Assembly (NCBI GenBank): GCA_965113315.1
Contig: OZ220365.1
Origin: Podarcis vaucheri
Lineage: Eukaryota
Reading direction: 5' to 3' (one strand)
Length of the DNA: 64,000 bases
This document shows, one piece after another, positions 18,048-62,084 of this stretch. Within the stretch, counting starts at the first letter, position 1; the number at the start of each line of letters is the position of its first letter. The notes beneath the pieces were generated by a model that made no database searches, had not been told where the DNA came from, and saw only the letters and a list, made by a program, of their open reading frames with translations. The position numbers and the translations under genes are program-made.

Positions 18048-18252
18048 GTGAGCCCATGACTCTTAACCTCAGGGTCTCGGGTTCACGCAGGCAAAGAGAT
18101 CCCAGCCTAGTAGGGGGTTGGTGCATAGCTGTCAACTTTTCCCTTTTCTTGCGAGGAATCCTATTCGGAATAAGGGAATTTCCCTTTGAAAAAAGGGAAA
18201 CGTTGACAGCTATGGGTTGGTATAGATGACTCTTGGGGTCCCTTCCAACTCA
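18048..18252 (+). mobile_element. Degenerate tRNA-Lys/CR1-tail SINE interrupted by a hAT MITE
   Basis: CATGACTCTTAACCTCAGGGTCTCGGGTTC (tRNA-Lys CTT-like), then GGGGGTTGG..TAGATGACTCTTGGGGTCCCTTCCAACTC (CR1 tail). Confidence 0.6.
18124..18214. mobile_element. hAT MITE of about 90 bp (TIR CATAGCTGTCAAC)
   Basis: 13-bp perfect TIR; 8-bp TSD GGTTGGTG/GGTTGGTA; copies at 30558 and 61567. Confidence 0.9.
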
Positions 18253-18399
18253 AATACCCGCCTCTGGTTCCTTTTACAGGGGCCGGCGGAGGTACACAAT
18301 TGGAGGGGGGGTGAGAAAAAAGAGAGGCTGTTTCTCCTGTTTCTTGCAAGGGGGGAGAGGGCTAAGTGTGCAAAGAATCTCGGTTAGGAGCTCCTGCGC

Positions 18400-19125
18400 C
18401 TCAAAAAAGGGGTGGCGGGGGAAAGCCCCTCAGCCCGGCCTCTCTCTTCACGACCCACTTCCTTTCACCCCCCCCCGATAAGTGAGCAATAAAAAGGACG
18501 CCCCGCCCCCTCCCTCCCTCCGAATCCATGCCTCCTGCACCTGGGCTGGCACGGGCAGCAAGCGGCGGCTGCAGAGGGGGCTTCCCCTAGCGCCGCCGTG
18601 CGCGCCCCAGCCGAGCGCCTCCTTCCTCCTCCTGCTCCCTTCCCGCTCCTCCGGGCAGGCCTCCCACCGCCTGCCTTCCCTCCCTCCCTCCTTCCTTCCC
18701 ACCCAGAGGCCGGGCCCGACTCGGCGGCGCCAGCCCCGTGACGTCGCTCCCCCGCTGCCTGCCCTCCCTCCCGGTCCAGGCCGGCGGCGCCTCTCAGGCG
18801 GCTGCCATGGAGACCGGGGCTCGGCCCGGGGCTGGGGGAGGCTGCAAAAGGCGGGGCCCGGCCCGGCCCAGGCTTTGGCAGCCGCGGCGCGCTTTTTTCT
18901 CACCCGCACCTGCAGTGCAGCTCGCGCTCTCCTTCCCACCCCCCCACCCCGCCTTCTCTTGCTTGTTCTTTGCAACGGTGTGTTGGTGCGCGCGCGCGGA
19001 AGGAGCGAAGCGGGCCCGGGAGGCTTTCCTTCTGCGGACGCAGCGCGCAGAGAGAGAGAGACACCGCTCGCCGCTACTCTGCGCCGCCGCAACACGGTTG
19101 CACCCCTAAACTGCTTCCGTGGCTG
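18400..19125. promoter_or_regulatory. Upstream CpG island, candidate ID2 BMP-responsive enhancer (about 5 kb upstream)
   Basis: GGCGCC at 18726 and 18786 flanking a CRE-like TGACGTCG at 18739, followed by GCCATGG (YY1-like) and AGAC; layout like the ID1/ID2 BMP enhancers. Confidence 0.7.
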
Positions 19126-20330
19126 GGATATTTTCCTAGTCCCGTGATAATTTCTGTCACAGGTTACACAGGCATTTGCGTGTATATATGTGTCCAATAT
19201 AAGGATCATGGAAATTTATTTTTTTCGCGTGTGTGGGGTGGGGAGTTGAATAATGGTGACTTTCGCGGATGTTTGAAAAGTTTCCTGATCCCCAATCCAT
19301 TTTGGGCGCACTCTCCAAAATCCTAAAGACACTCAAAAGAAAGGGAGGGGTATTAAAAGCAGGTCTATGTAACTTAAGGTTACACGGAACAATAGAATTG
19401 TAGAGTCGGAAGGGAGCCTGAGGATCATCTAGCGCAGCCCCCCCTCCACAACGCAGGCGTTATCAGCACCAGGCTGATATAGGTAACCAGCTACCTATAG
19501 ATTTAATTGCAAGGCTGCCACAAGGGGTTCTGCTTTCTTAGGAACATGTTACCTGGATGAATGATTAAGGTTGAAGTCGTTGCTTCGCGGGGTTCACAAA
19601 CCTCTCTCAACACTCTAATGGGGAGTGGCTTTAATGTGGAAACAGCCGAATGACGGGGATGAAGCACTCATTTTTTAAAAAACAAAAGCGGGGTGGGGGG
19701 TTGCAAACTCAAAACCAGTTCTTATAGTGCCGCAACAATGCAATGCAAAGGTGTTGTTATTAGAACCTGCAGGATCCCAGCATTTTCTGGTTCTTGACAG
19801 AATCCCACGTGCTTGTGTTTCGAGTCGCTACACGCGCTTACCTGGAGAAAGGTTTGCTTGCGCATGTATTCATGCCATAGAATTTGCACTGTAAATACAG
19901 TAGATCGAGAATGGCACAGGGCAGTGGTTGGGTGAACCCTGTCCGACTTATAACCAGGGCAGTGGCTTGCAAACTGGGTTTTTTTAATACTGTTGTTTGC
20001 CCATCGCATTGCCCATCTGTTCAAAGAGAGAAGTTTTAGAAAACGGGGGGAGAAGGACAGCTCATGGAGGCGCGCGCACTCTGGCTGGGGAAGGAGAGAG
20101 AGAGAGAGGGGTGCCTGCGAAATATTGCTGCAGAAATCTGTGAAGTGTACTGATCTCGAACAGCATTCCCCCCCCCTTTTTTTTTTCCTTTTTCCTGCTT
20201 CCACAAAGGATTCTGCTGTTACTTTTGTTCCGGTCACAAAACTGGAGCGAGCGAAAGAAATTAACTAGGGAGAGATAAGGTCTGGAAAACAATCTGGAAT
20301 TGCCAGTGTTGGTGGGAGCTCTGCAGGGCT

Positions 20331-20346
20331 GGCGTCAGGAAGTCTG
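20331..20346 (+). promoter_or_regulatory. Smad1/5-Smad4 composite element GGCGTC-N5-GTCTG
   Basis: Exact match to GRCGNC(N5)GTCTG. Confidence 0.65.
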
Positions 20347-20619
20347 CGCCGCCTTCTATTACTGTTGATCCAGCTTTGTGCAGCTGCACTCAGTACAATT
20401 AGCTTGTAGAAACAATCCTGTAGGCAGCCTTTTCCCTTCAAAGCTCTTCTCTGTACTGACCTCTCCTCCCTCCCCCTCCCCGCCCCACTTCCCTCCTTCC
20501 ATTTCCACACACTCACACAAACACACACAAAACACACATACATACGCACCAACCAGCCATCATCATGCTTGAAATCAAGTCACAAGCCGATCACTGTTTG
20601 GGCAACATCATCTGTGGGA

Positions 20620-21530
20620 ATTCATCAAACCCCCCGCGCCCTAGAGATGCAACAAGAGATTGTTTGTCCAGAACTTGCAGCTTAATATTACGATGTAACC
20701 CATACAGAAAAAGAGAAAGGGGAAAGCCGGGCCGGGCTGCGTAACAAGAAACACATTGTGCTCTTTGCTGTTCGCCGCCGCCTCTTGTAACTGGGCGCAG
20801 AGTAGTGGGAAAGGGGCGCAAAGGCACCTTCGAAAACTTCGCCGTCGGAAACAGTTCAGAATTCTCACCATCAACTCAATTGCTTTTATTTTTATTTAAG
20901 GGGTGGTGGTAGAAATAATGCGTCGCTACCAAGTTACATGCACAAGTGGTATCTCCCCCCTCGCCCCGCTTCACTTTGGTGATCTTAGATGTGCAAACTC
21001 GTCCACGCGTGTCTCCCTCGAAGTTTGCTGCTGACTCATTTCCTCTCTTTATATTCCATTTCAATTTTTTATTGCACTGTGCACACCTCCGCCCCCCCGT
21101 CACTTTCCAGCTCCCCTTTTGCCCCTGCACAGCAAAGCCTCTGCTCGAGGTTTCTGGACTCCTCCACGCCGCCTATCCCCGAGGTAACAAGCGCGCCAAC
21201 CGCCCACCCCCACGTCACCCCCCCGCCGGTTTCCCCGCCCTCTGTGTCTCCTCCCTCCGGTTCTGCGGAACACCAGGCGCCGCTGTTGCGAACTCTCCGC
21301 CACACGCCGGTCGCGTGCTGCTCTGCGTAAACTTTGCCGGTGGCTCCAGTTCCGCGACGGGGAGGGGAGGCGGACCAGGCCGCGGCTTCCTCGGCGAGCA
21401 GCAGACGCCTGCGTCGCCCGAGCGGATGCACGGCTGACGGGCAGAGAAGAGCCAGATGTGTGTGCAGGGTGTGTGTGTAAATTTGCAAGAGAAACCCCGG
21501 GTTTCGTATTAAACCGCGGCGCTTTTCGTT
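20620..21530. promoter_or_regulatory. Third CpG-rich island upstream of ID2
   Basis: High CpG density, no recognisable TE or protein. Confidence 0.6.
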
Positions 21531-21835
21531 TCTAAAGGTTTGGCTGCCCTGCAGAAAAAGAAGCAAGGTTCAGATGCAGAATATGTTGATGTTTTGTTAC
21601 TGCTGTTTGCGGTAACTTGAGATCTCCAATGTTTTCCCCCCCTCCCCATTTATCATAGACAATCTTTATTCGAGGCAGAGTGAACCAGTACTTTACCAGA
21701 ACGCTTTAGAAAATGGATACCAAAACGAAAAACCTTCTTATCATAAGGGCCAATGTCCCTTCACCTCCCCCCCAATAAAGCATTTGAGGGGGCCAGCCCC
21801 CCCCAGTTGATGGGCATTGCCATTTAAATGGTACA

Positions 21836-22223
21836 TTTCCGAGCACAGTTCAAAGTGTTGGTGCTGACCTTTAAAGCCCTAAACGGCCTTGGTCCAGTAT
21901 ATCTGAAGGAGCATCTCCACCCCCATCGTTCTGCCCGGACACTGAGGTCCAGCACCGAGGGCCTTCTGGCGCTTCCCTCCCTGCGAGAAGCCAAGTTACA
22001 GGGAACCAGGCAGAGGGCCTTCTCGGTAGTGGCGCCCTCCCTGTGGAACGCCCTCCCACCAGATGTCAAAGAGAACAACAACTACCAGGCTTTTAGAAGA
22101 CATCTGAAGGCAGCCCTGTTTAGGGAAACTTTTAATGTTTGATTTATTACAGTATTTTAATATTTTTTTGGAAGCTGCCCAGAGTGGCTGGGAAAGCCCA
22201 GATGGGCGGGGTATAAATAATAA

Positions 22224-22257
<34 letters not shown>
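21836..22257 (+). mobile_element. L2 LINE 3' end with (ATT)n tail, inserted in an older MITE related to 43245..43420
   Basis: ORF FKVLVLTFKALNGLGPVYL...RAFSVVAPSLWNALP is the L2 ORF2 C-terminus; microsatellite tail. Confidence 0.9.
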
Positions 22258-23039
22258 GTGTGCCACATCTTGTGATGGATTGTGTGAGGGAGGGCTTACC
22301 TGGACTCCCCCCCATATTTTATTCAAGTTGGCACCCTCGCTTCCTGTACTTTTGAAATGCTGTTTCTCATTTCTGTTTGAGTTGGATCCTGGACATAAAT
22401 TACATTTGAAGAGTAAACCCACTGAAATCTATGGGTCCTACATTGGTCATGGCCAGCTTGAGTCCCATTGGTTTCAGTGGGTCTGCTCAAAGTACGATGA
22501 TGTACGGGATCCAACCATATACATATGCTTTGCTTTTCAGCCTGCAGTAGGCTTTGAGATGCATTTGTGTGTGCCAGCCTTTCTCAACCCGGTGTCTTCC
22601 AGATCTTTTCAAACTCCCAACTCCTATCATGCTGTTGTGTGAGGAGGTGGCACGGCATGGTTTCCCCCCCATATTTAATATCAATGGTGGGAGGTAGTCA
22701 TTTAGGCACAAGGTGTCAGTATGATGATGATGCCCACCTCAATTTCTGCACACGTCTGGAAGTGATGTGTGCATGCGGTCATGGGCTGGTTGAAAGGTAT
22801 TAAATGGTGACTGAAGTCTGACAAGCTCTGGGCATTATGGACGTGCTGCTCCCTGGATCAGGAATTGGGCGGTGTACCAGCTCTGGAGGGGGGGGTACTC
22901 CATCTTATGGAGCAAGTGCCTAGTTTTCGGGTGCTCTTAGATTCATCGCTACAGGTCCACATGACCTCAGTGGCTTGGAACAATTGTTGAATTTGGTTGG
23001 TGCAGTGAGTGCAACTGTTCCTGCACACAGATAGCATTG

Positions 23040-23529
23040 TGTCAGGAATCGGGCTGAAGAGGAATGGTGGGACCTTCCAGAGAAGAGGGAAGCGGTATTG
23101 ATTTACAACAGTGGTTTGCAGAAGGGCACGGCTCAGAGGTAGAAGAGGGGCAAAGCTGGGAAATAACAGAGGAAGAGGAGGGGGGAGAAGCTGAGCAGGA
23201 GCAGCTGGCTGCCACGTCACCACTAGAAAGCTTTCCAGACCTCCCTTCTCCCAGAACCTGGCGAGCAGTGAAAGTGGGAGAACAAAGAGCTAACAGGCAA
23301 TTGGCCTTAAGCTGCCCCCATAAGGGGGCGGCGGCACAGGGGATGAATGAGAAGGGAAGAGGGGTGGAGATTACCTGGAGCAACGGCATTACTCCAAGAG
23401 ACAGCATTCCTAAGCCTCTCTCTGTGAATATTGAATAAAAGACTTGGTAAGAGCTTTCTTGTCTACTTAATCCCTGGCAGCCTGCTATGGGGGTGGGGAG
23501 AGGGGGATCGGATTCCCTGAGGCCTGACA
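23040..23529 (+). mobile_element. Solo LTR (490 bp)
   Basis: TGTCAGG...CCTGACA termini, perfect 5-bp TSD CATTG, internal AATAAA at about 23435. Confidence 0.85.
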
Positions 23530-23925
23530 CATTGTGACAGTGATCTATATATTACATTACATTGTTTTTCTAAAGACGATATACACAAAAAGAAAAATGG
23601 ACATTAACAACAAAATCATATGTATACAACACAATGAAATATTGATGATAAAGTAAAAAGTTTTTTTTTAAAAAAAAAACAACAACCAGGAAGTAAATCA
23701 ACTGGGTACAATTATGAAATTATAAAACTATAAAATTATAAATAGGGTATAAAAACACAAATTACAATGAAGAAAATAGGGGGTGGGAAGAAGGGTCTTG
23801 CCTGTTTACAGATGCTGCCAAACTATCATATTTTGAAGGAATTTGCCAGCTGTGTCACTGCAGATGTCATACATTTAATAAATAACTCCCAAAACAGAGA
23901 TGAAATCAGAAGGGTCAGCGTAACC

Positions 23926-24066
23926 CAGGCTTCCTCAAACTCTGCCCTCCAGATGTTTTGGGACTACAATTCCCATCATTCCTGACCACTGGTCCTGTTA
24001 GCTAGGGATGATGGGAGTTGTAGTCTTAAAACATCCGGAGGGCCGAGTTTGCCTATGCCTGACCTG
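23926..24066. mobile_element. hAT (Charlie/Buster-like) MITE
   Basis: CAGG...CCTG ends, internal palindrome GACTACAATTCCCATCA / TGATGGGAGTTGTAGTC, perfect 8-bp TSD GCGTAACC. Confidence 0.9.
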
Positions 24067-24593
24067 GCGTAACCCCTAGCAACACAAAGATTACATGTCA
24101 ATGTCTGTGAAATAGCAGAGAACATAACTTTCTTGAACCAATTATCTAGGTATAACACAAAGCATCTTTCCAGCCCTGAGCGATTACTAAATGAGCAGCT
24201 GCCAGATATACAATTAACTGTTTACATATAAGATCCACATTGCCTTTACCAAAAACAGATAGAACACATTGAGTAGGGCCTAGAATCACATTAAGTGGAC
24301 TGATTTCTGCAATAATTTGTTTCCAAAATGGACTCCACCATGTGTCTCCACAGCCCCACCAGCACCAGGGAGATCCTGATCTTGCAATAAGAACCAAACA
24401 CACTGGCGAAAAAATACCACCAATGGATGACTTTTAAAGAATTCTCCAACATGCTGGCAGAGACCAGTCTAAAAGAGATGATGGACAAGATCTTTGTCTG
24501 TTGAGATGCATCAAATTGTTCCTTAAGATTGACCCACATACCAACCATATGGCAAAAACTGTAATACTGTAGCAATAATATGCAGTTGTGAGG

Positions 24594-24722
24594 ATAGAAT
24601 CTCAGAGTTCTAGAGTCATCAATCTAGTCCAACCCCTTGCAGTGCAGGAATATTTTTGCCTAATGTGGGGCTCAAACCGGTGACCCTGAGATTAAGAGTC
24701 TTGTGCTCTACCAACTGAGGAT
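24594..24722 (-). mobile_element. tRNA-Lys(CTT)-headed, CR1-tailed SINE
   Basis: Reverse complement CTCAGTTGGTAGAGCACAAGACTCTTAATCTCAGGGTCACCGGTTTGAGCCCCACATTAGGC + ATTCCTGCACTGCAAGGGGTTGGACTAGAT. Confidence 0.8.
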
Positions 24723-24829
24723 ACTGAGCTTTTACACACATTACATCGTATTGAGAAAAATCTGCACTGGCTTCCTTTTAGCTACTGACTCAATTCTGAG
24801 GTTTTGCTGCAGGCATTTAAAGCCATAAG

Positions 24830-25014
24830 TTTGATCTTCTTGCAGTCCATGGGACTCTCAAGAGTCTCCTCCAGCACCATAATTCAAAATCATCAATTCT
24901 TCGGCGATCAGCCTTCTTTATTGTCCAGCTCTCATTTCCATACATCACTACTGGGAAAACCATAGCTTTAACTATACAGACCTTTGTTGGCAAGGTGATG
25001 TCTCTGCTTTTTAG
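24830..25014 (-). mobile_element. BovB (RTE) LINE fragment
   Basis: Reverse complement matches the BovB segment at 38570-38680. Confidence 0.85.
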
Positions 25015-25372
25015 GCAGGGGAATAGTCTGTTGGAAAATTGCTTGCAGATACCAGCTCATGGAATTATAGGACAAACTAAATTGAAAATAATACCTCCCG
25101 ATTCTTTCGAAAAGCATCTTTCTGTGCCGTTCACCACAGCCTCGGTGACAGATTTCAAGGGGCAAGGACCCCAGTGAATGAGGATCATAGAATGCCGTTT
25201 CAATTTCGTCGGAGGGTTTTGGGGTGGCGGATGGGAAATTGGATTAGCAAGGAGATCTCAGAAATATGTTCCAGGTGACTGTTTGAGCGGGGAGCCAGCC
25301 TTTCTTTCTTAGCAGCAGGGGTGGGGTTAAGACGGATTTGCATGAAGTGCCCTGCATTATTTATGTCGCTGC

Positions 25373-25410
<38 letters not shown>
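25373..25410. repeat. (CAT)n microsatellite
   Basis: About 12 perfect units. Confidence 0.95.
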
Positions 25411-26212
25411 CAGCTTAAAGTTTTAGGGGAAGTTTGAGATCTCCAGATTATATATATGAGCTAATTCTCAGTAAACTTGGAAGTTTGTTGTACTGGCATT
25501 GCTTGCTCCCCAGTCTGACCCACCAAGTCAGGAATGGAGAGTAACGTAAAACACATGCTTTCTGCGGGGTGACTTAACTGACACTGCTATTACTGGTATT
25601 AAGGGAATCTCCATGGTGCTTATTATCGGTCATTTTCGAATATGTAGCAGGACCCAGCTGTTGCCTGCAGGGTTCCCATATAATTTCAACAATCCTGGCT
25701 CATGGCAACATGCTTGCACAGCTCAGGGGTGCTCTGTGTAGGAAACAATTATTTCCAGGAGGTTTAAAACTCGGGCTTACAAATTCGAAACGATTCCTGT
25801 CTTAGATGTGGAATAACTGGATTATTTGCAGAAATGTAACAATGCAGTAGTCTACTTTTATCGTTTTGTTTTTTTCAGTTGATTCTTCCAGACTAGACTG
25901 ATGGAAAAGTTGAAGTTCATTCAGTATGTAGTAGGCTGGGAATGGCAGAGTTTTTGTTTTTAAAAATGTACAATAGTTGCAAAAGATCAATTAGGCTCCT
26001 TTTATCAGTATCCAATCACCATTTTTTGATAAATGCATAAACATTTACATATATATTCTTGGGGGGGGGGTGTTAAGGAGATTTGAAAGAGCTGCCACTG
26101 CTCCTAGTGACTGGCCTACTTCTCTGGTAAACAAGGTTTTTTCTTCATTATTTGGGGGGGGGGGACTGCAAAACCTTCAGTCTCAGTAACTGGAGGGCAA
26201 GACCTTCAGGGG

Positions 26213-26516
26213 AAGCGCTGAGGGCCTTCTGGTGGTTCCCTCACTGCGAGAAGTCAAGTTACAGGGAACCAGGCAGAAAGGGCCTTCTTGGTAGTGGCGC
26301 CCACCTTGTGGAACGCCCTCCTACCAGATGTCAAAGAGAACAACAACTACCAGACTTTTAGAAGACATCTGAAGGCAGCCCTGTTTAGGGAAGCTTTTAA
26401 TATTTGATGCATTACAGTATTTTAGTAGTTTGTTGGAAGCCACCCAGAGTCACTGGGGAAGCCCAGCCAGATGGGTGGGGTATAAATAATAAATTGTTGT
26501 TGTTGTTGTTGTTGTT
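26213..26516 (+). mobile_element. L2 LINE 3' end with (TTG)n tail
   Basis: Near-identical to 21950..22257. Confidence 0.9.
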
Positions 26517-26908
26517 AACTCCTGTGCACATCTCTTGTGCCATGCTCCTGATGTTCCCTTCCTTAGGTGGCTTGCCAAAGCCCCAGAATCTTTCAGATGA
26601 AGAACAAGACCTTCTTTTTGCGCTTGTGTAACCCAAGAAGAATAAACACCACTGCAAATTAATTTGAGGCCACAGCCTCTCCATCTGGTCGCCGAGAGTT
26701 CCACAGAGCGATACTGAACTGTGGTAGAAAAGGCAGGAATTCCATGGGGAAGTTAGGTCTTAAATCCCCTTGGCAAAAAAGTTTCCCTTCTGAATGTGTG
26801 TCTACCACTGAATGGATATTGCCCAGCTATTAGATTAGGCACGTACAATGAAGCACCTAAAAAAATAAAAATCTTGAGACACTTTATTTCTCTTGAAAGA
26901 GAGAGATA

Positions 26909-27012
26909 ATAGAATCATAGAACTGTTGAGTCGGAAGGGACCCTGAGGATCATCTAGTCCAACCCCCTGCCATGCAGCTGTCCCATAGGGGGATCAAACC
27001 TTCAACCTTGAC
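26909..27012 (-). mobile_element. Partial tRNA-Ile/CR1-tail SINE
   Basis: ATAGAATCATAGAA...CATCTAGTCCAACCCCCTGC followed by the same GCAGCTG linker and T-arm as 28880..29007. Confidence 0.65.
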
Positions 27013-27044
27013 ATGCTATGCTTCAGGAAGCTATGCCTTCCTGG

Positions 27045-27200
27045 GAAGGACTAGCTCAGCAGCAGAGCATCTCCCTTGCTTGGAAAAACCCTATGCTCAA
27101 TCTCCAACATCTCCAGGTCGGGCTGGGATTGAACCATGCCTGAAAATCTGGAGAAGTGCCTCTCTCAGTCAGTGTAGTCAGTACTGAGCTACATGAGCTT
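27045..27200 (+). mobile_element. Old tRNA-derived SINE (related copies at 41225..41375 and 44010..44110)
   Basis: TAGCTCAGCAGCAGAGCATC head; shared CATCTCCAGGT...CTGGAGA...TACTGAGCT body. Confidence 0.6.
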
Positions 27201-28879: not shown

Positions 28880-29007
28880 GAATCATAGAGTTGGAAGACC
28901 ATCTAGTCCCTGAAGACCATCTAGTCCAGGAATATGCAGCTGCCCCGTACAGGGATCAAACCTGTAACCTTGATGTTGTCAGCACCACACTCCAACTAAC
29001 TTAGCTA
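28880..29007 (-). mobile_element. tRNA-Ile-headed, CR1-tailed SINE
   Basis: Reverse complement TAGCTAAGTTAGTTGGAGTGTGGTGCTGACAACATCAAGGTTACAGGTTTGATCCCTGTACGGGGCAGCTGCATATTCCTG + CR1 tail. Confidence 0.75.
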
Positions 29008-29110
29008 ATGTGTCCCACTGATGCATATCTTAACTATTTGTTTTGTCATAGCCATCCCAACTAAACATAAGTGTTTGAGAAATGAGAGGCAGATTTACCA
29101 GAGCCTGCTA

Positions 29111-40905: not shown

Positions 40906-41198
40906 AGCCTGGATAGCTCAGCTGGTTAGAACATGGTGCTGATAACGCCACGGTTGCAGGTTCGGTCCCTGTAAGGGACGGCTGCATATTCCTGCATTGT
41001 GGGGTCTAGAATAGATCAGGCATCCCCAACCTTGGGCCCTCCAGATGTTTTGGACTACAATTCCCATCATCCCTGACTACTGGTCCTGTTAGCTAGGGAT
41101 CATGGGAGTTGTAGGCCAAAACATCTGGAGGGCTGTCAATTGGGGATGCCTGGTCTAGATGGCATGGTCCCTTCCAACTCTACAATTCTATGTTCTAT
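40906..41198 (+). mobile_element. tRNA-Ile-headed, CR1-tailed SINE interrupted by a hAT MITE
   Basis: GATAGCTCAGCTGGTTAGAACATGGTGCTGATAACGCCACGGTTGCAGGTTCGGTCCCTGTAAGGG closely follows tRNA-Ile; then ATTCCTGCATTG...CCCTTCCAACTCTACAATTCTATGTTCTA. Confidence 0.85.
41017..41152. mobile_element. hAT MITE (same family as 23926 and 63094)
   Basis: TIR CAGGCATCCCCAA / TTGGGGATGCCTG; imperfect TSD GAATAGAT/GTCTAGAT. Confidence 0.88.
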
Positions 41199-46294: not shown

Positions 46295-46822
46295 AGTCTT
46301 GGTCAGACCACACCTGGAGAATTGTGTCCAGTTCTGGGTGCCACAATTTAAGAAGGATGTCGACAAGCTAGAATATGCACAGAGGAGGGTGATCAGGATG
46401 ATGAGGGGTCTGGAAAACAAGCCTTATGAGGAACAGTTGAAAGAGTTGGGTATGTTTAGCCTGGATAAGAAGAGACTGAGAGGAGATACGATACCCATTT
46501 TCAAATATCTAAAGGGCTGTCAAATGAAAGGTGGAGCAAGATTGTTTTCTCCTGCTCTGGAGGATGGGACCCGAACCAATGGATTCAAGTTACAAGAAAG
46601 GAGATTTTGACTAAACATGAGGAAGAACTTTCTGACAGTGAGTCTGTTCAACAGTGGAAGAGACTCCCGTGAGAGGTGGCGGGACTCTCCTTCTTTGGAG
46701 GCTTTCAAGCAGAGGTTGAGTGGCTGTCTGTCATGTATGATCTAGCTGAGATTCCTGCATTGAAGGGGGTTGGGCTAGATGTCCCTTAGTGGGTTCCTTC
46801 CAACTGTACAATTCTACAATTC
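46295..46822 (+). mobile_element. CR1 LINE 3' end
   Basis: ORF LVRPHLENCVQFWVPQFKKDVDKLE...LGMFSL.K.RLRGD; tail ATTCTACAATTC. Confidence 0.95.
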
Positions 46823-47984: not shown

Positions 47985-48400
47985 AATAACCAGATGCACA
48001 AATGTAGGGTGGGAGACACCTGGCTTGACAGCAGTGCATGTGAAGATGTTCTAGGGGGGGTTTAGTAGACCACTGAGATAGCCATCTTCAGGTATCTAAA
48101 GGATACCACATGATAGTTTGTTTTCTGCTACTCCAGAGGGTAGGGCCCTGAGCCAATGGATTCACATTACAAGAAAGGAGATCCTGACTAAATGTTAGGA
48201 AGAACTTTCTGATGGTGAGAGCTGTTCAATAGTGGAATGGACCACCTTGAAAGGTGGTGGACTCTCCGTCCCTGGAGGTTTTTAAATAGAGGTCGGATAG
48301 CCATCTGCCAGGGATTCTTCAGCTGTGATTCCTGTGTTCAGGGGGTTGGGCTAGATGACCCCTGGGGGGGTCAACTTCCAACCCTACAGTCCTACGATTC
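47985..48400 (+). mobile_element. CR1 LINE 3' fragment
   Basis: Similar to 46480..46822. Confidence 0.85.
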
Positions 48401-52913: not shown

Positions 52914-53098
52914 GGGCTTATCCACACTTTCTAGGTGCAGGTCTGTGCTTCAAAGCGCTGTGTCTGAGTGCCCTGGCACTTTCCCCCAAAAACCCTGCTC
53001 TTTACTGCTGAAAACAATTCCACAGAGAATCCTGATTGCTGTTTGCACTGATTCAGCAGACACTGCCTAGAAAGCAAAAGTTAAGTGTGGATGAGCCC
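52914..53098. mobile_element. PIF/Harbinger-like MITE
   Basis: TIR GGGCTTATCCACACTT / AAGTGTGGATGAGCCC, 3-bp TSD CCA. Confidence 0.7.
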
Positions 53099-54649
53099 CC
53101 AGTCTCAGTTTCCCATTTGTAAACTGGGAATGATGCACCCTGATCAAAGTAGGAATCTAAAAAAAAAGCAGGAGTCAAATGGCATAGGAGGACCACACCT
53201 TTTCTGTTGCCTCTGTGTGTGACTGCAGTGACCTTACAACTAATTCTGGAAAAAGAACTGAGTCTGAAACTTGTGTCAGAAACATTCTGGGGGTGGTGGT
53301 GGTGGTTGTGGTTGGACTCCCCTCCCCTCTCACTTCTCTATTTGTCTTCCTTGTTGGTCTATGTGGGGAGATGACATTAAAGTTTCTGAGGGAGGCGGCC
53401 AGTCGCATTACAGCAGCGGCAGGGAACCTGTGGGGAATCTGGATGTGGCTGGACTACAACTCCCATCATCCCTGACTATTGGCCATGCTGGCTGGAGCTT
53501 ATGGGGGGGGGCGGGTTTGGAGTCAACAGCACCCAGAGGGCCACATGTTCACTGTCCAGTTTCACATGCTCGCGCCCCACCCCATGGCAACTCTCCACTG
53601 CAATTCTCCGCCGCACTGGCGGAAGTGAAGAGCTCCACTTCCCACCATATCAGTTATGAAGGCTTAAAACTGAGGACTGGACCATAACAAGTTAAATTTG
53701 CTAACATTCTTTCTTTGGGGTATTTTCCTCCCCTTGTACAATTATTTCCTCCCACGTAACAACTGAGCTAAAAACATATAAAGGCAAGCTTCATTACTTA
53801 GACAACACCATATGCCAAGACAACTGGACAGAGCCCGATAACGTTTGTTGTGCTGAATATGTTTTAAAGTTTTGTGTTAAGGTATAAATCTTTTAAAACT
53901 TTATTTATTTCTGACTGGGTTTTTTCCCCCTTTTTTAAAGAAAAACTTCCCCTTGTTTGATTTAATGCATTTCTCTGTCTTTTTTTCTAATAGTATAACC
54001 AATCAATATTAATATGGCACAACCAATTAATGATAATACAGATTGTTCTATGTCATTTAGCAGCATATGAGGCTTTTGCTTGACTTTAGTTTTACTTTTT
54101 AAAAGCAGAAAAACACATGTAGCGCCCCCCCTGACAAATGAAATAATTAAGAATTAGTTGTTAGAAAGGGGGGCGCTTTGAGATTAGGCACTCTTTTGGC
54201 TCGCGTTTGCATTGTAGTTCATCAACTGCAGCAAGTAATCTGTTATCATGGCGTTCTCTTCTAAGCCCTATTATCTGGCCCGCAGATTCCTACACATGAC
54301 TAGTCCTCGGCAGCGAACAAAAATGGCATCTAAATCCTGAATGTCACTCTTAAGCACTTGGCAGCAGAAGGGCTCATCTGAGGAAGATTAAGTTAATAGA
54401 AGCGTTTGGGTAACATCTGCATGCCTCCATCCTAGCAAGGCAAACTCGCACTGCAGTGACACGTGATCAGGGATTTCTTCGATTATCACTTAAGTACCTG
54501 ACTGGGTTTTGGTGCATAGATACATGTGCATATGCACACATGCCCTTTCTACATGCATGTAGAAAGTTGCAAGTTATGTGATGTAATCTCTGTGTTGGAG
54601 CATTTGTTTGTCTGTAATATACACATTTGAAACTGCATCATGTTAACAA

Positions 54650-54863
54650 ATCATAGAATCATAGAGCTGGAAGAGACCACAAGGGCCATCGAGTCCAACC
54701 CCCTGCCAAGCAGGAAACACCATCAGAGCACTCCTGACATATGGCTGTCAAGCCTCTGCTTAAAGACCTCCAAAGAAGGAGACTCCACCACACTCCTTGG
54801 CAGCAAAATCCACTGTCAAACAGCTCTTACTGTCAGGAAGTTCTTCCTAATGTTTAGGTGGAA
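54650..54863 (-). mobile_element. CR1 LINE 3' end (second family)
   Basis: ATCATAGAATCATAGA is the reverse of the (ATTCTATG)n tail; AGGAAGTTCTTCCTAATGTTTAG. Confidence 0.85.
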
Positions 54864-55116
54864 TAAATGTTGGGTTCCTCCCCCTCTCTCTGCCTCAACT
54901 CTGGCACAGAACCATTTCCTTTGTTACCTTAATGGTCCATACTTAGAGGGTCATTACCACACCAGGAAGCTGGGCTTCCTATTCTAGGAATGAAATCTAT
55001 GCTGTATCAAGGAATTAGAAGGGGGCTCAGGTATACAGCCTACACCGCCCCCGCCCCCAGTTCATAACAATATGTAGGATTGTGCTGTAAATCCTATTGA
55101 AACCGGTGGTATTGAA

Positions 55117-55369
55117 AGAAGAAGAAGAAGAGGAGTTTGGATTTGATATCCCGCTTTATCATTACCCGAAGGAGTCTCAAAGCGGCTAACAATCTCCTTT
55201 CCCTTCCTCCCCCACAACAAACACTCTGTGAGGTGAGTGGGGCTGAGAGACTTCAGAGAAGTGTGACTAGCCCAAGGTCACCCAGCAGCTGCATGTGGAG
55301 GAGCGGGGAATCGAACCTGGTTCCCCAGATTACGAGTGTACCGCTCTTAACCACTACACCACACTGGCT
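55117..55369 (-). mobile_element. tRNA-derived SINE (Squam3-like)
   Basis: Near-identical to 1256..1509. Confidence 0.88.
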
Positions 55370-56112
55370 CTCAAGATCTCAACTCACTCAAGTGCCAATG
55401 CTTTTTAGTAAGATCTAGCCATCACAAACCTTCAGTTAGGATCGGGCTGCTTGTGCAAACTATTAAATACTGAAATATGGTCCCGGCAGATGGTCTATAT
55501 TGATGTGACACAGAGAGTGCATAATAAGTATCTGATTAGCTAATAAAAAGTAAAATAAAAGGGGAAAGTAATTTTAACTTCATACAAACTTGCTATCTTT
55601 TTCATGGGAGAACTATCTCTGGGGATCTCATATACCTAATTGTAATGAAAAAATAAGTGCCATTATGGCCCCAGATCAGTGCATGAGCTTTTCACCTCAG
55701 TTGACTTGGACCCCCAAATATGGTTCTTGTTGAGCACCTAGGAAAAGTTCTCTTTCATCTTTATAAATGCCTCTTATAATGGCTGTCTCAACCCCTAAGG
55801 GACAAACTTTAGTGTGTGTGAACAGGTAGAGGGAAAGCATCAACACAGCAGAGGCAAGTTTGTCACATGGTCTGGCGGAGGTTGTCGCAAATGGGGTGCA
55901 TCCACTGGATCAGTCAGTGGAAGACTCCCTTTAATGCAGAGCTGGGGAACCTGTGGCCTTTCAGAGTTGGCTGAATTATGACTCTTCTTGTTCCTGTCCA
56001 GGGAGCGTCAGCTGGGTGAGCTGATGAGACTTGGAGGCTAACACCACCTGGATAGATAGCCGCAGAGGCTTCCCAAAATTCAAAAACATTAATGTTTTGA
56101 ATTCCCCATTGA

Positions 56113-56113
<1 letters not shown>

Positions 56114-56154
<41 letters not shown>

Positions 56155-56620
56155 TTGTATGCCACCCATCTGACTGGGTTGCCTCGGCCACTCTGGGCGG
56201 CTCCCAACATAGTTTGATAAAACATCAAATATTAAAAACTTTACTAAACAGGGCTGCCTTCAGATGTCTTCTAAAAGTCAAACAGTTGTTTATTTCCTTG
56301 CCATCTGATGGGAGGGTGTTCCACTGGGCAGGTGCGACTACTGAGAAGGCCGCCAGCCTGGTTCCCTGTAACCTCACCTCTCGCAGTGAGGCAACCAACA
56401 GAAGGCCCTCAGTGTCTGGACTGAATGATGGGGATGGAGACACACCCTTCAGGTATACAGGGCCAAAGCCGTTTAGGGCTTCAAAGATCAGCACCAACAC
56501 TTTGAATTGTGCTCGGAAACATACTGGGAACCAATGTAGAACCAATGTTCTATGGTCCCAGCGGCTGTTCCCAGTCACCAGTCTAGCATCCGCATTCTGG
56601 ATTAATTATAGTTTCCAAAC
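56114..56620 (-). mobile_element. L2 LINE 3' end
   Basis: Minus-strand ORF LHWFPVCFRAQFKVLVL...AFSVVAPAQWNTLP; microsatellite tail. Confidence 0.9.
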
Positions 56621-57684
56621 CGGCATCAAGATCTCTTTGGGCTTTCTGAGCAGCATTTCCCCAATTTAAAAGATGGCCAAACACCTGGAATCCTCCCAAA
56701 GAGCTTACTACATCCTTTGTTCTGTACGTCAGAGATGACGTACCATTTGCTTCTCCCTGGCAATATTTTTATGATGCACTGGATGGAACAGGCACAATAG
56801 TTTGCATGCCTGCAACCATTTACCACACCCACAGAAAATAGGCAAAATTAAGTTTGCCAAAACCAGGGCAACCCAAAAAACCTGAAATTCTCCATGGATG
56901 TCAATTCCACTTTTGAAATCCTGGTAAGGTCCGGACGTATGGGAGCCCTAGCAAAATGCTGAAATATTGTTCCCTCTCAGATTTGGTTGTTTGATTCTGT
57001 TTCCATGAGAAAGATCCCCTTCTGCTGTCAGGCTGCTGCTGTTGCACCTTGAATCATCCATTCTAACTTTTAAAAGATTGTTGAGTCTTTAAGGAAGCCA
57101 TAAGCATTTCTGATGTTTTATTAATCCCAGTCTGCTTTGATTACCGTGCCTCAACTGACTCCAGCACTCCTGGGTAGTGATGGCAGAGGCGGTGGCAATC
57201 AGGCTAATATTGATTTACCTACATACAGCATGTAGTAGATCAGTGGTATCAAGTGTGATTCTGTTTTAGCAGTGGCTTTGCAACACAAATCTAAGCTGAC
57301 AGTTTTATAAGACCCTCTCCGGCTCAATTTTGAAGGAAATAGGTTACAGCTTGTGTTGTAGTCATTTTGTTTTAACACCGGCACTTGGCAATTCAAAAGT
57401 GTTTTTGAAGACCAAAACAGTTCCCAAGGTTTCATCTTTTGACTATACAGCAGATATTCATTATTTATATATTTATAACTGTATAAAACAAAGGGTGCAG
57501 AGATATCCAAGAAGCCACATATGCTTTTACAGTATGCTCATTCTTGGAGGACATCCGTGGCTTATATGGCCCTCCTTTGGGTGCTAATCCAAACACGGGG
57601 CAGGGAAGTTTGTTTCCTACTTTTAAACCTATTTGCTTATATATGAAAGAATCTGCTTAAGCCATCAAATCCCTTGCTCACAGG

Positions 57685-57839
57685 CAGTGGTGTAGCGTGG
57701 GGGGTGCAGGGGGGGCCGGTCGCACCGGTCGCAACATCTGGGGGGGTGCTCGCTCGCATTCGAGTGCTAAAATCCACGGGTTAGGGGGCGCAAATTACTT
57801 GCCTTGCCCCGGGTGCTGACAACCCACGCTATGCCACTG
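57685..57839. mobile_element. hAT MITE (CAGTGG ends)
   Basis: 17-bp imperfect TIR CAGTGGTGTAGCGTGGG / CCCACGCTATGCCACTG; perfect 8-bp TSD CTCACAGG. Confidence 0.9.
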
Positions 57840-59987
57840 CTCACAGGATATCTGCAAAGAATACTTGAATGGAGGTGATGCCTGTCCTCAGACATCACCC
57901 AATGTCTAAAAAGTTTGGCTCCTTTCCCAGATGCTTGAAAGAACAGATTGATTAAAGATCTGGGCACTTTTGGCTCTCCCCCCCCCCCAATTCCTGGATT
58001 TGTATGATTGCAATGAAGTTTGGTGTGCCATGTTTTAGAAAATGACTTTCTGGCCTTTGGAGATACATAACTTAGCAATACCTGGCACAGCTCTCTTCCC
58101 TAAAACCATAGTTCTGAGAAACCCTTTTCTCTGTACCCTTAGGCATTGAGTTGACCCCTTGGGAACAAGTGGGAGGACAAGATGGGCCTTTGGCCTTCTC
58201 CAGAAGAGCTCTTCTTACCTCATTACATTATTTTCTTTTTGACCCCTCTCCAGCAGAACACAACATATATGCAAGGCTGAGGGAAGAGAGTCTGTCACCC
58301 ACAGAGGCATGGACATATTGTTATGAGGTTGGGATGGGAGGTACAGGAGAAGAGATTGAGAGTCTCTGGTCAACATGTTTCGAAAAGCTTTTGTGTCCCG
58401 TCCCCCCAGCATACTGGAACAGTGAGTAAAATACTATAGGCTAGACTCAACATTTGATCTTTGTTGAAAGTTTTGCATGGCTTGATATCAAATCATATTT
58501 TCCATACAATTTGCAAAGATTTTTGCTGGGAGAGGGGGGAAAAATGTGGTGTGAATTAATGGCCTTTGTTTTCCGGCTTCAAGAAGGCAAAACACAGCTG
58601 GAATTGTTTCTTTTGAATGTTCTTTCTCCTCGGGACTCATTTAACGGGTTTAATTATAAAGCAACAATTGACAAAAGACATCAAATACAATAGTCCCCAA
58701 CATTCTCTCTGTATAGCCTAGTGGTCCTGGGTGGATTTTTTTAAACATTAGGAGGTTCAGGGCGGCACTTGCAAGGTATATTTGCGAGTATTGGAGATGC
58801 ACTGGTATCTTTGATTGAGTAGTCATGATGGAAAGGGTTCTGTGTCGCTTTTAGTGGGAGAAATGGATCATTCTGCCAGTTTGGGTTTCTTTCTGTTTCT
58901 CATGTTTCCAGTCTTAAACTCAGTTCTCCGCATTTCTGAACCAGTTTGCTTTTATTTAAAAGAAAAGAAAAGGCCACATACAAATTTGTCAGCATTTAGT
59001 GGAATCCGATGAACTCATTTTGTGTGTCATTTTGTCCAACAGCCACATTTTTTTTTGCAAACAATACTGTCTCGTGTCATGCATTTTTGTATGTTAGTTT
59101 CACCGATGCACACATTTTTATGCACCCTTTCCTCTAATATACACATTTTGCATGCATTATTTGGTTGGAAAACTGCACCACAGAATTCAGAGAAGTGTGA
59201 ATTTCAAAGGGTAGCTGCACTTCAGTTTGCATATTGTTTCAGGAAGTGTTAATTAGAGTTTCATATTCACATGTCAGCTGAAACAAATTTCTCCCCTATC
59301 TTTGTGTGTGTGTGTGTGTGTATTTGTGCTTGTGGAAAAGCAAGGGGTGCTAGCTTCTTAAAACATCACTTTTGAAAACTAAACTAATTCGTTTATTAAA
59401 ATATTTTAAACCACCCTTCATCAGTCAGATATGGAAGGCAGTGTATGAAAGAAAAGACCCAACAAACGGTCTTGAAACCATAATATATAAACATAAAATG
59501 CAAGCAAAACAATGTGGGGGTTTTTTTGCTTAAAAAAGGCAATAAAAACGTAAACAACTGAAATACCTAGAAAAAACAGAAACACTTTAACTTTGCACTT
59601 GAATAGCAAACAGAATCGGCACTCATTTTGTTTCTACAGTTTCCAGGCCTCTCTGTTTAGCCCTCATAACACTACAGGCCTCACTAGTCCTTGCTTTGCA
59701 GCTCATGTGCTTTTGCCTGGCTGGAATGTGTTCTTGAACTCTGTTGATGCTTCTTGTTCATATGGATGGAGGATAGTCAAAGGTAAACGCTTGCTCCTCC
59801 CACTTTTGTTGCTCCTCCCATGTTTGCCTCTGGCCCCACCCACCACTCCCAGGTCATCCTTGGAAAGTTGCCAAGAATGGAAAGTGGTCCTTAGTCTGAA
59901 AGAAGTCTGCAAATGTATCCCCCCCTCATCCCTGGCATGGCAGGGGTCTGTGCACATGCCTCCCAAATTTCCTGCTCCATGCTATAG

Positions 59988-60176
59988 TAGGGCTGCCATA
60001 CATCTGGGATTTGTCCACTGAAAACAGCGTCCAGGTGTATAGCAGTCTATATTGGAAGTGTTGACTTTTTGGCGAATTTCCCCCCAAAAAGCTCAACAAC
60101 ATTGGCCCAAACAAAACAAAAGAAGTTAAACAACTTTTGTGTCCAGATTTTCACTTCCTGAAATATAGCACCCCTA
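59988..60176. mobile_element. hAT MITE with TAGGG ends
   Basis: Perfect 8-bp TSD TGCTATAG. Confidence 0.85.
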
Positions 60177-60317
60177 TGCTATAGCCCTAATCCAAACCAT
60201 CCCCAAACTGCTGTTAACCATGGATGGGAAACATGCAGCCATGACTGGTGCTTGTATGTTTTCATCTCCATGGTAATAGACCTTGGGGATGGGATTTGGA
60301 CCTGTCTTCTACCAGTC

Positions 60318-60545
60318 AGATAGTTGTTTATTTCCTTGACATCTTATGGGAGGGCATTCCACAGGAAGGGCCCCACTGCCAAGAAGGCCCTCTGCCTGGT
60401 TCCCTGTAACCGCACCTCTCGCAATGAGGGAACCACCAAAAGGCCCTTGGAGCTGGACCTTAGTGTCTTGGTTGGATGATGGGGGTGGAGATGCTCCTTC
60501 AGATATACAGAGCTGAAGCCTTTTAGGGCTTCCTTCAGGTATTTG
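60318..60545 (-). mobile_element. L2 LINE fragment
   Basis: Minus-strand ORF YLKEHLHPH...RAFLAVGPFLWNALP. Confidence 0.85.
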
Positions 60546-60825
60546 GGTCCGAAGTCTTTTAGGACTCCCCTTCTCCTTGGGCCATGTCCCTGATTTAAAC
60601 TGGTGGACCCACAGCTTCTTTCAGAAGATGGAAAGTATGTTGGGAGATCCAGTTGCATTTCTCCCCCAGAACATCCCTAGACCATGAGATTCCCAATTCA
60701 AGTCCTGGAGAGCCATATGTATATAAATCAAATATTATTTGTAATAAGAGTTGACCCTACAGCTTTAATTTTCTGGAAGCCAGTCTCTGAGCCGCCTCAA
60801 GCAAGATTTATTTTTGTACATAAAA

Positions 60826-61084
60826 AGGTAAAGGTAAAGGACCCCTTACAGTTAAGTCCAGTTGTGGACGACTCTGGGGTTGCGGCGCTCATCTCGCTTT
60901 ACAGGCCGAGGGAGCCAGCATTCGCAGACAGTTTTTCTGGGTCATGTGGCCAGCATGACTAAGCTGCACAACGGAATACCGAAACCAGAGCAGTGCATGG
61001 AAATGCTGTTTACCTTCCTGCCAGAGCAGTACCTATTTATCGACTTGCACTTTTTTTTGCGGTGGGCATGCTTTCGAACTGCTA
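60826..61084 (-). mobile_element. Sauria SINE, 5'-truncated
   Basis: AAGGTAAAGGTAAAGGACCCC tail; body matches 1721..1965. Confidence 0.85.
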
Positions 61085-61566
61085 CATAGGATGTAGCACA
61101 TAGTAGTACGTAGGATGTACATAGTACATAGGATGTGCATATGATACCTGATGACAAAATATGAGTTGAGCCGCAGATGTGTACACATGTGTGCATTTTC
61201 TCACCCGCCCTTAGCCCTTTAAGAATGTGTACAGATAGGGGGCCTAATCCTTCCTTGATTGCTGCCTGTGTGTAGTAAGAAATAAGACAGTTGGCATTCA
61301 ATTCCCACATGTGCAATGCAGATGTCATACATGACATGTGTATTCTCCACTCCGGTATCATATCTTAGTACAGAAAATTTAAATGAAGGGGCTTTCAGAA
61401 TGGGGTAGGCTGTGGGTTTCGTGTCCACATCTCTGAATAATTCCCTTACACTATTCCATGACCTCAATGTGTTCTTCTACTACTGTACATCTTGTTTGGA
61501 ACTGCTAATATGGTCAACGAACCATTAAGACAAGCTCTGTAAACTTCCTGTAGACAAACCAAAGAG

Positions 61567-61656
61567 CATAGCTGTCAACGTTTCCCTTTGTTTAAGGGAA
61601 ATTCCCTTATTCCGAATAGGATTCCTTGCAAGAAAAGGGAAAAGTTGACAGCTATG
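61567..61656. mobile_element. hAT MITE of about 90 bp (opposite orientation)
   Basis: TIR CATAGCTGTCAAC; TSD CCAAAGAG/CCAAGGAG. Confidence 0.9.
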
Positions 61657-61930
61657 CCAAGGAGCGACATAACCAAAGAGCAAGAGTACCTACTTTCTTC
61701 TTGTGGTTGTCGATGCTGAGTGAATAAAGGGGGAAAAAAGAGCAAACAGTAACAAAGGACATGAAAAGAGAAACTAGGACTCAGAACAGAGATATACGCT
61801 ACAAAACCCAAGTTCGCTGAAGCTTCAGTGCTTTCGAAAACAACCTCATAATCAGCATGCCACAGCATTCTGCCAGGTTAAATGTGAGATGATAGTGATT
61901 TTTATAGTGAGGGTAAACACACACCCAAAT

Positions 61931-62084
61931 GATCTGTGGTGCAAGGGGTCATTGTGCCTGGCTTTTCACCAGAAGGTGGGTGGTTTGAGCCCCCCCCCCC
62001 GGGATGGCTGTGGTCAGGATTCCTGCATTGCAGGGGGTTGGACTAGATGACCCTTGGGATCCCCTCCAACTCTACGATTCTGCG
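61931..62084 (+). mobile_element. tRNA-Asn-like-headed, CR1-tailed SINE
   Basis: TCTGTGGTGCAAGGGGTCATTGTGCCTGGCTTTTCACCAGAAGGTGGGTGGTTTGAGCCC aligns with tRNA-Asn as recalled; followed by ATTCCTGCATTGCAGGGGGTTGGACTAGATGACCC...CCAACTCTACGATTCT. Confidence 0.7.

What the first reader, a model, noticed from the sequence alone, without database searches (positions are those of the whole stretch)
18048..62084. Modular SINEs: three different tRNA heads (Lys, Ile, Asn) fused to the same CR1 3' tail, with CR1 in the window
Seen: a tail of about 65-70 nt (ATTCCTGCATTGCAGGGGGTTGGACTAGATGACCC..CCCTTCCAACTCTAC.ATTCT) matches the end of the CR1 copies at 46751..46822 and about 48328..48400. It is joined by a short linker to a tRNA-Lys(CTT)-like head (24594..24722 minus, 18048..18252), a tRNA-Ile-like head (40906..41198, 28880..29007, 26909..27012, traces at about 19391..19495) and a tRNA-Asn-like head (61931..62084). 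Where intact, the junction falls at the same ATTCCTG point. Established: tRNA-CR1 chimeric SINEs occur in turtles and passerine birds and use the CR1 enzymes. Inference: repeated de novo SINE birth or head swapping by template switching at a fixed CR1 position. I cannot tell whether these lizard families are already catalogued.
Basis: partly seen in the sequence, partly recalled or inferred. Interest (0 to 1): 0.7.

Follow-up and report, generated by a model that had tools for sequence, protein, structure and literature searches.

The report
Four lizard SINEs share CR1 tail
This lizard genome holds four families of short jumping elements, three headed by different tRNAs and one by a piece of 5S rRNA, all ending in the same 65-base tail of the CR1 retrotransposon cut right after its stop codon, likely from several separate capture events, which would make it a rare replicated example of how such elements are born.

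Summary
The window's Lys, Ile and Asn elements belong to dispersed multi-copy SINE families: exact junction 25-mers occur 814, 544 and 67 times genome-wide, control 0. Each head matches a different tRNA gene of this genome. A fourth family, absent from the window, carries the 5S rRNA internal promoter on the same tail (up to 109 hits).

The tail is the CR1 3'UTR. It starts 5 nt after the ORF2 stop codon, just before two predicted hairpins and the ATTCTATG repeat. A T5 run 45 nt upstream would stop Pol III. Heads lack CCA, and two linkers resemble tRNA-gene trailers.

The families are 8-11% diverged, like the old CR1-A subfamily. The young CR1-B has a changed tail and no SINE partner in my samples.

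No tail change is shared between SINE families, so separate captures fit better than head swapping. RNA template switching versus DNA insertion at a tRNA gene is undecided.

The kind is known (turtle, passerine, tuatara). Six literature searches showed no squamate example, but Dfam, Repbase and SINEBase could not be checked.

The parts
18046..18252 (+). Lys-headed SINE copy, degenerate and 5'-eroded, split by a MITE
   Evidence: (Lys head profile hit from 18050)
18124..18214 (.). 91-bp MITE with 13-bp terminal inverted repeats and a near-perfect 8-bp flanking duplication (hAT-type, label recalled), inserted in the SINE tail
   Evidence: seen in sequence
19392..19498 (-). Ile-headed SINE remnant with an internal deletion across the junction
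24594..24722 (-). Lys-headed SINE copy; tail starts at 24651; deletion in the second hairpin
   Evidence: 103/121 to consensus
26909..27025 (-). Ile-headed SINE copy, 5'-truncated, 10 nt deleted at the junction
28880..29008 (-). Ile-headed SINE copy; head passes Rfam tRNA cut-off (31.9 bits); 15-nt deletion in the tail
40907..41198 (+). Full-length Ile-headed SINE copy; tail starts at 40988; split by a MITE
41017..41152 (.). Palindromic MITE inserted after the TAGAT motif of the tail
   Evidence: hairpin scored as mir-5408 below cut-off
46300..46822 (+). 5'-truncated CR1-A copy; ORF2 stop TAG at 46743-46745; tail from 46751
48010..48400 (+). 5'-truncated CR1-A copy of the GCTGTG variant; tail from 48328
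54649..54826 (-). 3' end of a young CR1-B copy with a changed tail (5' limit not mapped)
61931..62084 (+). Near full-length Asn-headed SINE copy; tail starts at 62019
   Evidence: 128/145; same insertion seen in contigs of other runs

Best explanation
These are four old SINE families of 143-158 nt, each a Pol III-type head (tRNA-Lys, tRNA-Ile, tRNA-Asn, or the 5S rRNA internal control region) joined to the 3'UTR of one CR1 lineage, and they likely arose by several separate captures and were likely copied by CR1 reverse transcriptase. Shown: the anatomy, the copy families, and that the tail begins 5 nt after the ORF2 stop codon. Inferred: a CR1 cDNA that stopped just past the recognition hairpins was joined to an unprocessed tRNA 3' end or to the trailer of a tRNA gene, using the short ATT match to the start of the Pol III terminator. 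Only joins in a narrow window survive, because they must keep the hairpins and microsatellite and must not reach the T5 run 45 nt upstream, which would end Pol III transcription. The SINEs likely died with CR1-A; today's CR1-B has a changed tail.
For: Families: junction counts 814/544/67/109, controls 0. In 80 random 10-kb stretches, 11 of 11 Lys heads and 6 of 7 Ile heads carry the tail. Parent: an intact 1001-aa endonuclease + RT ORF ends at a CR1-B tail; its stop lies 5 nt before the tail in 18 of 18 CR1-B ORFs of 25 aa or more, and in the CR1-A consensus. Hairpins plus octamer are predicted in all tails, the CR1 signature in PMC4316615 and PMC5729268. T5 at -49 in the CR1-A consensus, T4 or longer in 38 of 56 copies; no T4 in any SINE consensus. 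No CCA after base 73 in any head. The Lys linker is 4 nt then ATT; 2 of 3 sampled Lys-CTT genes have a 4-nt trailer then ATTTTT. One Ile gene's end matches the CR1 junction over 11 nt, best of 57 tRNA genes, next 7. The 5S join lies inside 5S at about nt 97 and keeps GTTGAG of one CR1-A variant. Lys (T39, 37 of 56) and Ile (T33, 27 of 38) have private tail changes, none shared. Divergence 7.7-10.9% against 12.0% for CR1-A and 1.1% for CR1-B. 1 of 227 SINE tails matched a CR1-B motif.
Against: The tails are so alike that no shared change does not exclude head swapping. Ile and Asn share GGGAC-R-GCTG at the head end, and Ile and Lys share GGATAGCTCAG at the start, which could be recombination between SINEs. 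The trailer matches are post hoc, come from one tRNA cluster, and ATT is only 3 nt. The Asn linker (12 nt) matches neither of 2 sampled Asn trailers. The allowed window is about 44 nt wide, yet all joins fall in its last 10 nt, so the terminator alone does not explain them. The excess of CR1 5' ends there is modest: 21 against about 10 expected, p 0.002-0.03. No master locus was found. Transcription and mobilisation were not tested. Target-site duplications were inconclusive.
Confidence: 0.62

Rival explanations
1. One SINE was born once from CR1-A, and the other families arose by head swapping, as proposed for TguSINE1 and PittSINE. The shared breakpoint is then simply inherited.
For: All joins lie within about 10 nt. 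Ile and Asn share GGGAC-R-GCTG; Ile and Lys share a derived A at head position 7. Ages overlap. Precedent in PMC5729268.
Against: In birds four diagnostic tail bases unite the SINEs; here none is shared. The bases just upstream of ATTCC differ by family and match different CR1-A variants (GTTGAG for 5S, AG for Lys). A few Ile copies keep the tRNA-Ile end GGGCCA, and an Ile gene trailer explains the GCTG linker without Asn. The Lys T39 is shared with CR1-B (19 of 19), not with other SINEs.
Confidence: 0.25
2. A mixed history: two or three captures (Lys, 5S, and one for Ile plus Asn), with one head swap between Ile and Asn.
For: The Ile and Asn linkers both begin GCTG after GGGAC-R and differ there only by CpG-type changes.
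Against: GCTG is also in CR1-A itself and in an Ile gene trailer, so it need not be inherited. Linker lengths differ (7 and 12 nt).
Confidence: 0.1
3. These are not self-propagating families but many separate tRNA-CR1 chimeric retrocopies, or chance adjacency of tRNA pseudogenes and CR1 stubs.
For: Short CR1 stubs that begin near this point are common (21 of 94).
Against: Each family has one fixed linker and fixed private changes against its tRNA gene. Among the first 100 of 2221 B-box + tail matches I classified by eye 56 Lys, 40 Ile, 4 Asn and no other tRNA. Independent chimeras would vary in isotype and join.
Confidence: 0.02

Closest known systems
TguSINE1 and PittSINE of passerine birds (PMC5729268; parts 1 and 2 of 4 read)
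   Same: tRNA head joined directly to a CR1 3' end with hairpin and ATTCTRTG octamer, no body; two heads on one tail; tRNA-Ile head in TguSINE1.
   Different: Two families and about 2000-2500 copies per genome there; four families and tens of thousands of copies here. Bird SINEs share four diagnostic tail bases; these share none. No Lys, Asn or 5S head there.
Tortoise Pol III/SINE (tRNA-Lys head, PsCR1 tail; table passage in PMC3747384)
   Same: tRNA-Lys head with CR1 tail in a reptile.
   Different: Listed for cryptodire turtles. Lepidosaurs keep only CR1 group C (PMC4316615, passage), and the lizard tail is near-identical to its own CR1-A, so a separate origin is inferred. Sequences were not compared.
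tuaCR1-SINE1a/b of tuatara (PMC7116210 and bioRxiv 867069; passages)
   Same: CR1-mobilised tRNA-like SINE in a lepidosaur, over 10,000 elements.
   Different: Described as recently active. Head identity and sequence lie in supplements I could not see, so homology is untested.
Squamate SINEs Sauria/Squam1, Squam2, Squam3, Anolis SINE2, SINE2-1_Acar
   Same: tRNA-derived SINEs of lizards.
   Different: Partners are Bov-B (Sauria), L2 (Squam3), Anolis LINE 2 and Vingi-2. They are 190-350 nt with a body. Squam2 is recalled as tRNA-Ala-derived; its sequence was not seen.
5S-headed SINE3 / AmnSINE1 (table passage in PMC3747384)
   Same: 5S rRNA-derived promoter on a CR1-type tail.
   Different: Listed as DeuSINEs with a zebrafish CR1-4 tail. 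The lizard family is 158 nt, has only 5S nt 49-97 behind a 38-nt leader of unknown origin, no room for a central domain, and the lizard's own CR1 3'UTR.

Membership tests
SINE (general) | Head derived from a Pol III RNA with internal promoter | tested here: met
   Heads match this genome's tRNA genes 67/73, 63/74, 59/74; the fourth matches 5S nt 49-97 at 40/49, score 62 against at most 29 in 2000 shuffles.
SINE (general) | Short, non-coding, many dispersed copies | tested here: met
   143-158 nt. Lys about 22,000 (95% 11,000-40,000) and Ile about 14,000 (5,700-29,000) from 800 kb; Asn and 5S 0 in 800 kb, under 7,400 each, but at least 67 and about 100 exact junctions.
SINE (general) | Target-site duplications | tested here: inconclusive
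   22 of 47 near-complete copies share a word of 5 nt or more across flanks, shuffled mean 12.6 and maximum 24; for 6 nt or more 5 against 3.5.
SINE (general) | Transcribed by Pol III | not testable with these tools
   No T4 run in any consensus is compatible with it; no start-site data.
CR1-mobilised SINE (TguSINE1 type) | 3' end derived from a CR1 LINE with hairpin and ATTCTRTG octamer | tested here: met
   Tail equals the CR1-A consensus at 64-65 of 66 positions and folds alike; a related element has an endonuclease + RT ORF. The CR1 label rests on the octamer and hairpin (PMC4316615, PMC5729268), not on an RT tree.
CR1-mobilised SINE (TguSINE1 type) | Activity overlaps that of the partner CR1 | tested here: met
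   SINEs 7.7-10.9% and CR1-A 12.0% from consensus; CR1-B 1.1%. Rough: samples of about 30, and CR1-A pools subfamilies.
Head-swapped SINE pair (TguSINE1/PittSINE model) | Derived tail bases shared by the SINEs and absent from CR1 | tested here: not met
   None shared among 56 Lys, 38 Ile, 58 Asn and 51 5S tails.
Squam3 | CORE fragment, L2-derived 3' end, (TAAA)n or (CTT)n tail, 218-239 nt | tested here: not met
   Here CR1 tail, ATTCTATG repeats, no body, 143-158 nt.
Sauria/Squam1 | Bov-B-derived 3' end with ACCTTT repeats | tested here: not met
   Tail repeat is ATTCTATG.
Squam2, ACASINE2, tuaCR1-SINE1, Cry/tortoise SINE | Sequence identity to the published consensus | not testable with these tools
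   Consensus sequences not available: supplements absent or without hits; no Repbase, Dfam or SINEBase access.

The most novel reading that the evidence does not exclude
Four undescribed SINE families were born independently in one lizard lineage from one CR1 lineage, all joined at the ORF2 stop/3'UTR boundary. For the tRNA heads the join used the trailer and first bases of the Pol III terminator as microhomology. This would give a general rule for where and how SINEs are born. The fourth family would be a minimal 5S-promoter plus amniote CR1 SINE of a design not seen in the papers searched.
Probability: 0.3. Interest if true: 0.62.

Novelty: new member of a known kind. Interest (0 to 1): 0.42.

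Why it matters
De novo SINE birth is rarely caught because most SINEs have one ancient origin and an opaque body. Here four body-less families in one genome keep heads close to living tRNA and 5S genes and a tail equal to the parent's 3'UTR. The two textbook routes (template switch, or insertion into a Pol III gene; PMC5381603 passage) can therefore be tested against each other with outgroup genomes. The families also delimit the minimal CR1 recognition element, offer tens of thousands of old presence/absence markers for lizards, and probably inflate CR1 counts and tRNA predictions in lizard annotations (7 of the 30 best tRNA-family loci were Lys SINE heads).

Tried and rejected
ARAGORN finds no tRNA in the window; Rfam scores only two Ile heads.

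Master locus: an Asn junction inside the tRNA cluster region (L386) is a 5'-truncated copy with no tRNA gene in 7 kb.

A fifth tRNA head: none in the first 100 of 2221 B-box + tail matches, and none obvious among the unclassified tails printed.

Origin of the 38-nt leader of the 5S family: no convincing match in 800 kb. One leader-only copy lies near an Ile gene in L310.

Six weak Asn-head hits in the random sample belong to another SINE (recalled as Sauria-like) and were not counted.

Rows dropped: L356, L365 and L375 from the 5S set (CR1 or stub), and one Asn copy too short to align. output was cut, so Ile L293-305 and Asn L326-338 were seen only through later scripts.

The planned enlargement of the random sample was not obtained. 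732 kb of flanks gave Lys 9, Ile 2, Asn 0, 5S 0, so Ile may be nearer 9,000 than 14,000.

Expression: no RNA holder listed; not pursued.

Literature: searches (six aimed at squamates or CR1-SINEs, one at TguSINE1) listed no squamate CR1-tailed SINE.

Earlier scan notes: only shark Zenon notes, not relevant.
Full report
Observation. All listed elements are in the window. A profile built from 30 genome-wide tail hits finds 11 tails in 64 kb and 58 in 80 stretches of 10 kb taken at round coordinates on 12 contigs. Three Ile copies are on the minus strand, two copies are split by MITEs, and a third CR1 end lies at 54649-54716 (-). The genome is 1.61 Gb. I call it a lizard, probably lacertid, by inference from its size and recalled repeat types.

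Families. Exact 25-nt junction motifs occur 814 times for Lys, 544 for Ile and 67 for Asn, with 0 for reversed controls; the CR1 junction motif occurs 2595 times. The window's Asn copy finds 40 scored relatives at 82-86%, and the 30 fetched (the window copy among them) have one fixed linker. In the random 800 kb, 11 of 11 Lys heads and 6 of 7 Ile heads carry the tail; Asn 0. That gives about 22,000 Lys and 14,000 Ile copies with wide intervals. Flank counts (Lys 9, Ile 2 in 732 kb) suggest fewer Ile. Scaling junction counts by about 26 gives roughly 1,800 Asn copies (arithmetic). A generic B-box + tail pattern has 2221 matches; the first 100, classified by eye, are 56 Lys, 40 Ile, 4 Asn and none other.

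Heads. Real genes came from a tRNA cluster and the 5S array. Consensus heads match Lys-CTT 67/73, Ile-AAT 63/74 and Asn-GTT 59/74, and the wrong isotypes 43-52. The Ile head reads GAT at the anticodon.

A fourth family. Two of the first 30 tail loci had an unknown head. Searching with it gave 40 scored hits at 88% or more, and the 30 fetched had the tail start. Its junction motif, with two degenerate letters, has 109 hits, of which 27 of 30 fetched are this family. The head is a 38-nt leader of unknown origin plus 5S nt 49-97 (40/49, score 62, best of 2000 shuffles 29), which by established knowledge is the internal control region. It is not in the window.

Tail. Upstream of the tail in LINE copies lies an ORF; one young copy has 1001 open codons with endonuclease and RT domains. 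The ORF2 stop lies 5 nt before the tail in the main CR1-A consensus and in 18 of 18 CR1-B ORFs, and overlaps the first tail base in a minor variant (6 copies). The SINE tail is therefore the CR1 3'UTR with almost no coding sequence. It is predicted to fold into a 5-bp hairpin and a longer stem-loop, followed by ATTCTATG repeats. Papers describe this hairpin and octamer as the CR1 recognition and priming signals (PMC4316615 passages; PMC5729268).

Why one breakpoint. The 3' limit is the need for the hairpins (inferred). The 5' limit is a T5 run at -49 in CR1-A (T4 or longer in 38 of 56 copies), which would end Pol III transcripts (established terminator rule, inferred effect). That leaves about 44 nt, but all joins are in the last 10. 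CR1 5' ends are somewhat enriched there: 21 of 94 tails start within 12 nt, 0.011-0.030 per nt against 0.002-0.008 further up. With the 38 SINE copies added to the risk set this is 21 against about 10 expected, p 0.002, or 0.03 without four doubtful rows. In contigs of related runs, loose ends pile up at the same base.

How the join was made. No head has CCA, so the donor was a precursor or the gene. Variants with GGGTG show that the Lys master ended at G73, then 4 nt, then ATT; 2 of 3 sampled Lys-CTT genes have a 4-nt trailer then ATTTTT. One Ile gene end matches the CR1 junction over 11 nt, best of 57 genes, next 7; the Ile linker differs from it by a CpG change and one base. These matches are post hoc. 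The Asn linker has no match in 2 genes. The 5S join is inside 5S and keeps 6 nt of a CR1-A variant. Template switching onto a precursor and insertion of a CR1 stub at a gene's terminator give the same product. The second would also supply upstream signals and a terminator. No source locus was found.

One birth or several. In passerines four derived tail bases unite the two SINEs. Here Lys has T39 (37 of 56; also 19 of 19 CR1-B and 3 of 64 CR1-A), Ile has T33 (27 of 38) and A38 (28 of 38), and Asn and 5S equal CR1-A. Nothing is shared between SINEs, so separate captures are the simpler reading. Against it, Ile shares its first bases with Lys and its last head bases and GCTG with Asn, and a 66-nt tail has little power.

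Age. Non-CpG divergence outside the selected motif is 9.2% (Lys, 30), 7.7% (Ile, 30), 10.9% (Asn, 29), 10.4% (5S, 27), 12.0% (CR1-A, 61) and 1.1% (CR1-B, 21). At the 0.0013 per site per Myr used in PMC13295347 (passage) that is very roughly 60-85 Myr. The window's Asn insertion is present with its flank in contigs from three coded organisms, one possibly the source (5' flank and head in two, tail end and 3' flank in the third). CR1-B differs at several tail positions but keeps the first stem; 1 of 227 SINE tails (not de-duplicated) matched a B motif, and only partly. Target-site duplications were inconclusive.

Known systems. The design is known from turtles, passerines and tuatara. Named squamate SINEs have Bov-B, L2 or Vingi partners. 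Searches listed no squamate CR1-tailed SINE. Repeat databases and the tuatara, SINEBase and Squam2 supplements could not be seen and may hold these families.

What I saw of each paper. PMC5729268: parts 1-2 of 4. PMC7983390: part 1 of 4 and passages. PMC10702118, PMC3531059, PMC7116210, bioRxiv 867069, PMC4316615, PMC3747384, PMC9498476, PMC13295347, PMC11303007, PMC5381603: passages. Supplements of PMC7116210 and PMC10702118: term search, no hits. Recalled, from no call: Squam2 as tRNA-Ala-derived, the hAT and Sauria labels.

Verdict. Real and larger than reported; new members of a known kind, with the 5S-headed family and the stop-codon boundary as the additions. Interest 0.42.

Noticed in passing
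L201-L230, L356-L385 (e.g. G000:C17:40246050): Fourth SINE family, 158 nt: 38-nt leader of unknown origin, 5S rRNA nt 49-97, and the same CR1 3'UTR; not in the window.
   Followed up: yes
window 41017-41152; L056, L068, L256, L276, L346: MITEs beginning with CA insert right after the TAGAT of the tail in 6 distinct copies among 271 scanned; the tail may be a target hot spot for hAT-type elements.
   Followed up: partly
L054:3990-6995 (-); window 54649-54826 (-): Young CR1-B family, 98-99% identical copies, one with an open 1001-codon ORF2; changed 3'UTR and no SINE partner seen.
   Followed up: partly
window 23952-24035, 41043-41126, 63120-63203: Palindromic MITE copies score 49-56 bits to Rfam mir-5408 (cut-off 90), hinting that this microRNA family is MITE-derived.
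   Followed up: no
L084-L087, L090-L093, L095, L096: An abundant tRNA-Ala-like headed SINE with a different body (probably Squam2, recalled) makes up 10 of the 30 best tRNA-family loci, beside 7 Lys SINE heads.
   Followed up: no
L310:4625-4662: The leader of the 5S family alone, without 5S part or tail, about 120 nt downstream of a tRNA-Ile gene in the tRNA cluster.
   Followed up: partly
Asn family linker: The linker ends in GCAGG, giving GCAGG-ATT-CCTGC-ATT-GCAGG, so the first hairpin is predicted to have an alternative pairing.
   Followed up: no
Ile family 5' end: Its first 7 nt match tRNA-Lys(TTT) better than tRNA-Ile, and its anticodon reads GAT; possible second chimerism.
   Followed up: partly
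window about 3470-3529 (-): Weak 5S-like match (15.7 bits) without the tail.
   Followed up: no
G000:C34:11.10-11.65 Mb; G000:C19:7.94-7.97 Mb: Dense tRNA gene cluster (57 calls in 200 kb sampled, including 37.78-37.81 Mb) and a 5S array with a unit of about 570 bp.
   Followed up: partly
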